Positions 36,191 to 36,276 of a DNA stretch of 64,000 nucleotides are shown here, piece by piece. Source of the stretch: Ginglymostoma cirratum (lineage: Eukaryota); the NCBI GenBank assembly GCA_024137785.1, contig JAHRHZ010000266.1, forward strand, positions 41,259,940 through 41,323,939. The letters are read 5' to 3'. The notes under the pieces are model-generated. The model worked only from the letters and a program-made list of their open reading frames with translations, did not search any database and was not told the DNA's origin. Every line of letters begins with the position of its first letter. Position 1 is the first letter of the stretch. A program made the translations under genes and the position numbers.

Positions 36191-36276
36191 GTAATTAATC
36201 AAGCTGTCAAACAGAAGGTCAAAGGCTATGTAGTGGGGTCAATGGGTCAGGCCTGGGCTGATAGAGGTCAGGGTCA
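36191..36276 (+). promoter_or_regulatory. Candidate nuclear-receptor response element cluster (DR2, DR0, imperfect DR1) with adjacent homeodomain/TALE motifs
   Basis: AGGTCA 36216-21, GGGTCA-AT-GGGTCA 36236-49, AGGTCAGGGTCA 36265-76; TAATTAAT and CTGTCA (TGACAG) at 36192-36209. Confidence 0.55.

What the first reader, a model, noticed from the sequence alone, without database searches (positions are those of the whole stretch)
36191..36276. Five perfect co-oriented RGGTCA half-sites in 61 bp: candidate retinoic-acid / COUP-TF response module in a FAM172A intron
Seen: AGGTCA-A-AGGCTA (imperfect DR1, 36216-28), GGGTCA-AT-GGGTCA (perfect DR2, 36236-49) and AGGTCA-GGGTCA (perfect DR0, 36265-76). 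They directly follow TAATTAAT and a TGACAG (Meis/TALE-type) site, in unique sequence with no recognisable repeat (~35250-37960). Known: RAR/RXR binds DR2/DR1/DR0, COUP-TFs bind direct repeats of varied spacing, NR2F1 is retinoic-acid responsive, and FAM172A is adjacent to NR2F1 in other jawed vertebrates. Inference: a long-range NR2F1 enhancer integrating RA input and possibly COUP-TF autoregulation.
Basis: partly seen in the sequence, partly recalled or inferred. Interest (0 to 1): 0.7.

Follow-up and report, generated by a model that had tools for sequence, protein, structure and literature searches.

The report
Ancient duplicated COUP-TF hindbrain enhancer
This stretch is one of two copies in this genome of a very old gene-control element, likely doubled together with the NR2F1 and NR2F2 genes; the NR2F2 copy is already known to drive hindbrain expression in zebrafish, and both copies keep an evenly spaced row of nuclear-receptor motifs that would likely let COUP-TF proteins or retinoic acid tune it.

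Summary
The motifs are real: five perfect RGGTCA in 61 bp; 0 of 300 simulations reached even four. They lie in a 127-kb FAM172A intron, 389 kb from NR2F1. A 220-bp block holding them has exactly one other match in the genome, 68% identical, 347 kb downstream of NR2F2 in the same orientation. That copy matches CONDOR CRCNE00008470 / NR2F2_27254, found in human, zebrafish and lamprey and shown to drive hindbrain GFP. Its catalogued human paralog is dCNE 209_2 in a FAM172A intron. So this is the ortholog of a known duplicated Pbx-Hox/Meis enhancer. Not noted in the papers I read: both copies keep three perfect half-sites at identical spacing (12 nt from the Meis site start, then 28 and 21 nt). 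The shared arrangement is DR1-type. The perfect DR2 and DR0 are absent from the NR2F2 copy, and there is no DR5. Enhancer role well supported; nuclear-receptor input likely; COUP-TF feedback favoured over direct retinoic-acid activation, neither tested.

The parts
36119..36338 (+). Duplicated conserved non-coding element, NR2F1-side copy; inferred ortholog of human dCNE 209_2 / SB27CNS416
   Evidence: 68% identity over 223 columns to G000:C48:10265846-10266064; local score 73 against a maximum of 32 in 998 random pieces of the NR2F2 flank; literature links
36172..36181 (-). Pbx-Hox KR motif 1 (consensus TGATNNATKR)
   Evidence: inside an 18-nt block identical in both copies; listed as a KR hit in human CRCNE00008470
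36192..36201 (-).
   Evidence: the same 10-mer, 2-nt gap and Meis hexamer are listed at human chr5:93222797-93222814, GERP-positive
36204..36209 (-). Meis/Prep motif (consensus TGACAG/A)
   Evidence: kept in the paralog and in the human, zebrafish and lamprey NR2F2-side records
36216..36228 (+). DR1-spaced pair (perfect + 2 mismatches), 6 nt after the Meis site; the most widely shared nuclear-receptor element
   Evidence: same offset in the paralog with perfect + 1 mismatch; by eye a perfect DR1 in zebrafish nr2f2 and 1+1 mismatches in human NR2F2
36236..36249 (+). Perfect DR2; its 3' half-site is kept in the paralog, where the pair is DR1-spaced with 1 mismatch
36265..36276 (+). Perfect DR0; only its 5' half-site is kept in the paralog
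6989..7207 (-). FAM172A (Arb2 family) coding exon of about 73 codons; downstream boundary of the host intron
   Evidence: tblastn and translation with an AG acceptor just before 7207; the end is read from the first likely donor

Best explanation
This is the NR2F1-side copy of a conserved element that has one paralog downstream of NR2F2, likely duplicated in early vertebrate genome doubling, and it likely acts as a long-range hindbrain enhancer of NR2F1 in which Pbx-Hox-Meis would give segmental activation and the adjoining half-site row would likely bind COUP-TF dimers as feedback. Shown here: two copies, their placement beside NR2F1 and NR2F2, and shared motifs with shared spacing. Shown in print: hindbrain reporter activity of the zebrafish nr2f2 copy. 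Inferred: that the NR2F1 copy is active too, that NR2F1 rather than FAM172A is the target, and that a nuclear receptor binds. COUP-TF is the best guess for the occupant because the shared geometry is DR1 and COUP-TF also accepts the DR0 and DR2 seen only in this copy; RAR/RXR would compete for the same sites. I put the enhancer part at about 0.9, a real nuclear-receptor input at about 0.75, and COUP-TF as main occupant at about 0.55-0.6.
For: Two copies only, found from either side. They sit 389 kb and 347 kb downstream of two COUP-TF genes in the same orientation. Other unique-looking blocks keep the same order (kb from the zinc-finger exon, NR2F1/NR2F2): 25.9/23.4, 31.4/37.0, 353/206, 389/347, 413/396, 418/400. 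The NR2F2-side copy matches CRCNE00008470 = NR2F2_27254 by eye, which drove hindbrain GFP at 48-54 hpf and maps inside dCNE 209_1; 209_2 is in a FAM172A intron and carries the same Pbx-Hox + Meis pair. Pbx-Hox + Meis within 100 bp: 21 of 22 hindbrain-positive versus 1 of 33 negative elements. Three perfect half-sites have identical offsets in both copies (12, 28, 21 nt); rough chance of keeping 3 of 5 at 68% identity is 0.013. The paralog holds the only cluster of 3 or more half-sites in 410 kb of the NR2F2 side. COUP-TF binds DR1 best and DR0-DR13 promiscuously; COUP-TF displaces RAR/RXR at a DR1/DR0 composite in Pou5f1.
Against: No binding or reporter data for the NR2F1 copy were found; the paralog table lists no known element or activity for 209_2 and zero for all its ChIP-seq columns. 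The motif searches of the human-fugu CONDOR set found only the NR2F2 copy. I never saw the full human NR2F1-side sequence, so conservation of its half-sites is unknown. In human NR2F2 the DR1 halves each have a mismatch; in lamprey the aligned first half-site has 3 mismatches and the record ends early (by eye). Motifs cannot tell COUP-TF from RAR/RXR, RXR homodimers, TR2/TR4 or HNF4 (established knowledge). The 0.013 figure assumes independent columns. The reporter assay was transient and the motifs of this element were not mutated in what I read.
Confidence: 0.6

Rival explanations
1. Same enhancer, but the half-sites are a true distal RARE: RAR/RXR on the DR2/DR1 gives direct retinoic-acid activation that combines with Hox/TALE input.
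For: Perfect DR2 plus DR0, and RAR/RXR regions often hold several motifs. nr2f1a and nr2f2 respond to RA or RAR inhibition. Zebrafish nr2f1a promoter constructs holding the 5'-UTR RARE did not respond to RA manipulation, so a distal element is wanted. Three RA-induced accessible peaks are assigned to zebrafish fam172a (2 of 3 rows seen, not mappable to this element).
Against: DR2 and DR0 are not kept in the paralog; no DR5. DR0 does not act as an independent RARE. The RAREs reported for mouse Nr2f1/2 are promoter-proximal DR1, and that motif is present at both genes here. No fam172a row and one nr2f2 row (13.6 kb from the start site) in the zebrafish table of RAR sites in conserved elements.
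Confidence: 0.27
2. A plain Pbx-Hox/Meis hindbrain enhancer; the half-sites are incidental, kept by hitch-hiking in a constrained block, and the perfect DR2/DR0 are lineage drift.
For: A genome-wide chance expectation of about 0.18 such clusters; half-sites are degenerate in human NR2F2 and weak in lamprey; neither enhancer paper mentions such sites.
Against: Three exact half-sites with exact spacing in both copies while the spacers differ; a perfect DR1 at the same offset in zebrafish.
Confidence: 0.09
3. A regulatory element of the host gene FAM172A rather than NR2F1.
For: It lies inside FAM172A.
Against: The paralog lies beside NR2F2, where tblastn found no convincing Arb2-family exon in 410 kb (best E 0.12); FAM172A and NR2F1 are listed in one cluster of 67 ultraconserved elements.
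Confidence: 0.02
4. A transposon or repeat remnant carrying multimerised half-sites.
For: The window is rich in repeats; no repeat library was available to test against.
Against: Only two genomic matches from either query (the search can undercount repeats); one hit in 878 kb of flanks; placement beside two paralogous genes; homologs in human, zebrafish and lamprey. An ancient exapted origin cannot be excluded.
Confidence: 0.02

Closest known systems
CONDOR CRCNE00008470 = NR2F2_27254 (PMC3261376; PMC4489388) = dCNE 209_1 / SB76CNS348 (PMC3595034)
   Same: Homologous element: two Pbx-Hox motifs, Meis motif 2 nt after the second, half-sites behind it; downstream of a COUP-TF gene; hindbrain reporter activity shown for the zebrafish copy.
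   Different: The finding is the NR2F1-side paralog, inside FAM172A; it carries a perfect DR2 and DR0 where the NR2F2 copies carry DR1-type pairs; its own activity is untested.
dCNE 209_2 / SB27CNS416, human chr5:93222693-93222959 (PMC3595034 suppl. table 2; PMC4489388 S6 table)
   Same: Inferred direct ortholog: FAM172A intron, paralog of 209_1, identical Pbx-Hox 10-mer + 2 nt + Meis hexamer.
   Different: Full human sequence not seen; no activity or nuclear-receptor sites recorded in those tables.
Pbx-Hox + Meis/Prep 'hb_100' hindbrain enhancer syntax (PMC4489388)
   Same: Both motifs within 100 bp, here 2 nt and 22 nt apart, positionally conserved.
   Different: Adds a conserved nuclear-receptor half-site row, which that syntax does not include.
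Promoter-proximal DR1 RAREs of Nr2f1/Nr2f2 (PMC7259794)
   Same: DR1 element shared between the two paralogs; proposed RA input to the same genes.
   Different: Those lie next to exon 1 (also present here); this element is about 390 kb away and is joined to Hox/TALE sites.
Pou5f1 composite DR1/DR0 element (as discussed in PMC4446430)
   Same: Multi-half-site element where COUP-TF and RAR/RXR compete.
   Different: Promoter element in pluripotent cells, no Pbx-Hox/Meis, not on a COUP-TF gene.

Membership tests
Duplicated CNE (paralogous CNS from vertebrate genome doubling) | Two or few non-coding copies in the genome with significant similarity | tested here: met
   2 matches from either side, E about 8e-9; score 73 versus maximum 32 of 998 controls
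Duplicated CNE (paralogous CNS from vertebrate genome doubling) | Copies lie beside paralogous genes in the same order and orientation | tested here: met
   389 kb from NR2F1 and 347 kb from NR2F2, same orientation, ordered neighbours
Duplicated CNE (paralogous CNS from vertebrate genome doubling) | Conserved across vertebrates | tested here: met
   NR2F2-side records for human, zebrafish, lamprey compared by eye; NR2F1 side by coordinates and an 18-nt motif pair only
Pbx-Hox/Meis hindbrain enhancer | KR motif and Meis/Prep motif within 100 bp, positionally conserved | tested here: met
   two KR motifs within 40 nt of the Meis motif; 4 of 18 KR motifs in the window have a Meis motif that close, two of them here; kept in paralog and human
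Pbx-Hox/Meis hindbrain enhancer | Drives hindbrain expression, dependent on the motifs | not testable with these tools
   activity shown only for the zebrafish nr2f2 copy; no mutagenesis of this element seen
Retinoic-acid response element (RARE) | DR5, DR2 or DR1 of RGKTCA | tested here: met
   perfect DR2; no DR5; DR1 imperfect
Retinoic-acid response element (RARE) | Repeat type and spacing conserved | tested here: inconclusive
   DR2 and DR0 not kept in the paralog; orthologous NR2F1-side sequences in other species not seen at base level
Retinoic-acid response element (RARE) | RAR/RXR occupancy and RA-dependent activity | not testable with these tools
   look-ups by gene name in two ChIP-seq papers' supplements gave nothing that maps to this element
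COUP-TF response element | GGTCA direct repeats, DR1 preferred, DR0-DR13 accepted | tested here: met
   DR1-type pairs in both copies plus DR2/DR0 here; preference
COUP-TF response element | COUP-TF binding and functional dependence | not testable with these tools
   needs EMSA, CUT&RUN and mutants
Interspersed repeat | Many dispersed copies | tested here: not met

The most novel reading that the evidence does not exclude
Before NR2F1 and NR2F2 split, the ancestral COUP-TF gene already had a distal module that couples Hox/Pbx/Meis segment input to a nuclear-receptor switch fixed 6 nt behind the Meis site. COUP-TF (negative feedback) and RAR/RXR (RA input) compete there; after duplication the NR2F2 copy kept DR1 pairs while this NR2F1 copy gained DR2 and DR0, shifting it towards RAR. 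It would be the distal RA-responsive element that nr2f1a promoter constructs lack.
Probability: 0.3. Interest if true: 0.65.

Novelty: new member of a known kind. Interest (0 to 1): 0.42.

Why it matters
How NR2F1 and NR2F2 get their hindbrain patterns and their RA response is only partly explained: the known RARE is at the promoter, yet zebrafish promoter constructs did not respond to RA. This pair offers a 220-bp, motif-resolved, directly testable candidate linking Hox/TALE input with RA or COUP-TF feedback, with two paralogs that differ in repeat spacing as a natural experiment. The inferred human ortholog lies in the regulatory domain of a neurodevelopmental disease gene (NR2F1, BBSOAS; search listing). 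The element itself is already catalogued, which limits the surprise.

Tried and rejected
Repeat origin: rejected; no tandem repeat at the site. Coding role: the only ORF of 100 aa or more over the site (36239-36574, minus) has no sign of being a gene and was not pursued. Third copy near other NR2F genes: none found; the LBD search showed only one weaker relative. Automatic colinear chain (15 of 22 same-orientation hits): not used as such, because it took in three L057 hits that are probably low-copy repeats; of 36 filtered hits I viewed 9 alignments and checked genome-wide copy number for 2. Human NR2F1-side sequence: not found in the CONDOR human file with six motif terms. McEwen 2006 was not held under the recalled id; its dCNE numbers come only from the table. 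Public runs: 19 of 21 listed hold the stretch or part of it, under six organism codes; no base-level comparison was obtained, so this is not used as evidence. RAR ChIP-seq supplements: no Fam172a rows in the mouse F9 files (one file not searched); zebrafish rows could not be mapped to the element. Earlier scan notes: none. Literature searches for a nuclear-receptor or RA role of this element and term look-ups in the two enhancer papers found none; subscription papers and unread supplements are not covered.

Full report
Observation. Five perfect RGGTCA hexamers start at 36216, 36236, 36244, 36265 and 36271 on the + strand, out of 73 in the window. The DR2 and DR0 are the only perfect direct repeats with 0-8 nt spacers in the window; in 300 order-4 Markov simulations the largest 61-bp cluster was 3 (11 of 300). 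The Poisson expectation is 3e-6 per window but about 0.18 per 4 Gb, so the cluster needed independent support. The Meis motif is on the minus strand (36204-36209). The AT-rich palindrome belongs to a Pbx-Hox KR motif (36192-36201, minus), and a second KR motif lies at 36172-36181.

Setting. Arb2-family exons lie on the minus strand on both sides. A tblastn placed further exons, one at about window 6989-7207 and the next upstream at C266:41394667, so the element sits in an intron of about 127 kb, 29 kb from the exon. A COUP-TF gene lies on + at C266:40907396, 389 kb away, and a second at C48:10612981 on minus. Their ligand-binding exons are 98% identical and match COUP-TFII 3cjw at E 1e-95. I call the C266 gene NR2F1 because it adjoins FAM172A (the pairing is listed in PMC3436827) and the C48 gene NR2F2 because its flank matches the human chr15 element and its residues at the start of the 3cjw alignment follow COUP-TFII.

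The key result. A search with 36100-36400 gave 2 of 2 candidates: itself and C48:10265846-10266064 (68%, E 8e-9). The reverse search gave the same pair plus a local duplicate of the C48 flank. The second copy lies 347 kb downstream of NR2F2 in the same orientation as the first lies from NR2F1. Its alignment score is 73 against a mean of 20 and a maximum of 32 in 998 random pieces. Comparing 468 kb of the NR2F1 side with 410 kb of the NR2F2 side left 36 filtered hits, 22 in the same orientation. Several of these are probably low-copy repeats. Besides 7 hits in or at the genes, six blocks that look like conserved elements run in order: 25.9/23.4, 31.4/37.0, 353/206, 389/347, 413/396 and 418/400 kb. 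This is the pattern expected of elements doubled with their genes; the whole-genome-duplication origin is inference.

It is a known element. A motif search of the supplements of PMC3261376 found the human record CRCNE00008470 and the zebrafish element NR2F2_27254, with a lamprey record as well. By eye the human record follows the C48 copy closely over its 121 nt; I did not compute this alignment. NR2F2_27254 is one of 12 of 21 tested elements that gave consistent expression; it is shown against r3/r5 markers, strongest at 48-54 hpf. PMC4489388 places CRCNE00008470 at human chr15:97348121-97348241, inside SB76CNS348 = dCNE 209_1, whose paralog SB27CNS416 = dCNE 209_2 is chr5:93222693-93222959 in an intron of the gene next to NR2F1. 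At chr5:93222797-93222814 the human genome has the same Pbx-Hox 10-mer, 2-nt gap and Meis hexamer as window 36192-36209, GERP-positive. The finding is therefore the inferred ortholog of dCNE 209_2. I did not see the rest of the human NR2F1-side sequence.

What happens to the half-sites. In both copies the first perfect half-site starts 12 nt after the first base of the Meis motif, and perfect half-sites follow 28 and 21 nt later. That paralog cluster is the only one with 3 or more half-sites in 410 kb; the NR2F1 side has one other cluster of 3 in 468 kb. A rough chance of keeping 3 of 5 at 68% identity is 0.013. The pairings differ. The NR2F2 copy has two DR1-spaced pairs, each perfect plus one mismatch, and no DR2 or DR0. 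The NR2F1 copy has a weaker DR1, a perfect DR2 and a perfect DR0. By eye on the published records: zebrafish nr2f2 has a perfect DR1 6 nt after the Meis site, then half-sites 29 and 23 nt on (one with a mismatch); human NR2F2 has a DR1 with one mismatch per half at the same offset and a perfect half-site 28 nt on; lamprey keeps the Pbx-Hox and Meis motifs but the first half-site position has 3 mismatches and the record ends soon after, so it is inconclusive. The two enhancer papers do not mention these sites in their main texts.

Mechanism. Pbx-Hox with Meis within 100 bp marked 21 of 22 hindbrain-positive and 1 of 33 negative elements, so segmental activation through these motifs is likely. 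The half-site row is likely a second input. COUP-TF binds DR1 best and accepts DR0 to DR13, which fits a scaffold whose half-sites are kept while the spacer type changes. COUP-TF can displace RAR/RXR from a DR1/DR0 composite. I therefore favour COUP-TF feedback on its own genes, with RAR/RXR as competitor. Direct RA activation is the main rival. For it: a perfect DR2, RA response of nr2f1a and nr2f2, and promoter constructs of nr2f1a that did not respond to RA. Against it: no DR5, DR2/DR0 not shared with the paralog, DR0 not an independent RARE, and the reported RAREs being promoter-proximal DR1, a motif also present at both genes here. No binding data could be mapped to the element, and the paralog table shows zeros in all ChIP-seq columns for both copies.

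What I saw of each paper. PMC3261376: passages, section 8 whole, searched supplements. PMC4489388: passages and supplement rows. PMC3595034: passages and rows of supplementary tables 1 and 2. PMC7259794, PMC2811727, PMC3436827: passages. PMC11563408: passages and section 6. PMC4446430 and PMC8608873: passages and supplement searches by gene name (one file of the former not searched; further rows not read). PMC7515732: abstract. McEwen 2006: nothing, not held. Figures were not available, so the rhombomeres marked by NR2F2_27254 are unknown to me. The list of other DR1-binding receptors is recalled.

Verdict. A real, ancient, duplicated element, already catalogued, with a tested paralog. The new point is the conserved half-site scaffold tied to the Meis site, which makes COUP-TF feedback versus RA input testable on 220 bp. 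Interest 0.42.

Noticed in passing
window 572-842 and G000:C48:10406830-10407100: A second, stronger two-copy NR2F1/NR2F2 block (73% over 275 columns, E 1e-31, 2 of 2 candidates genome-wide), in the next FAM172A intron. It does not obviously correspond to any of the three NR2F1/NR2F2 pairs listed in PMC3595034, so it may be a paralogous element visible only in slow-evolving genomes.
   Followed up: partly
window 60582-60634 and L089:1516-1592: Two more short NR2F1/NR2F2 colinear blocks (83% over 53; 74% over 80). The first holds a Meis motif next to a TAAT core; by order it may be human pair SB27CNS225/SB76CNS77.
   Followed up: partly
L020:533-684 and L020:3146-3297 (G000:C48 about 10265733-10265884 and 10268346-10268497): A 152-bp perfect inverted duplicate that begins just past the half-site row of the NR2F2 copy: a recent rearrangement or an assembly artefact.
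   Followed up: no
G000:C61:4296271-4297059 (L010): An intronless Arb2-family ORF of 355 codons, about 35-50% identical to FAM172A exons; possibly an intact FAM172B-like gene (name recalled).
   Followed up: no
L003:924 (+) and L004:8892 (-): The promoter-proximal DR1 RARE reported for mouse Nr2f1 and Nr2f2 is present once at each gene.
   Followed up: partly
L055:7865-7938 and L056:3413-3513: Two colinear NR2F1/NR2F2 blocks 26 and 31 kb downstream of NR2F1, the second about 300 bp from the last FAM172A exon.
   Followed up: no
L081:5949 (G000:C266:41191349): The only other cluster of three co-oriented perfect RGGTCA in 468 kb of the NR2F1 side.
   Followed up: no
window 35201-37900: About 2.7 kb free of local repeats around the element; human lists another conserved element 0.4 kb after dCNE 209_2, so further elements may lie at about 36900-37350.
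   Followed up: no
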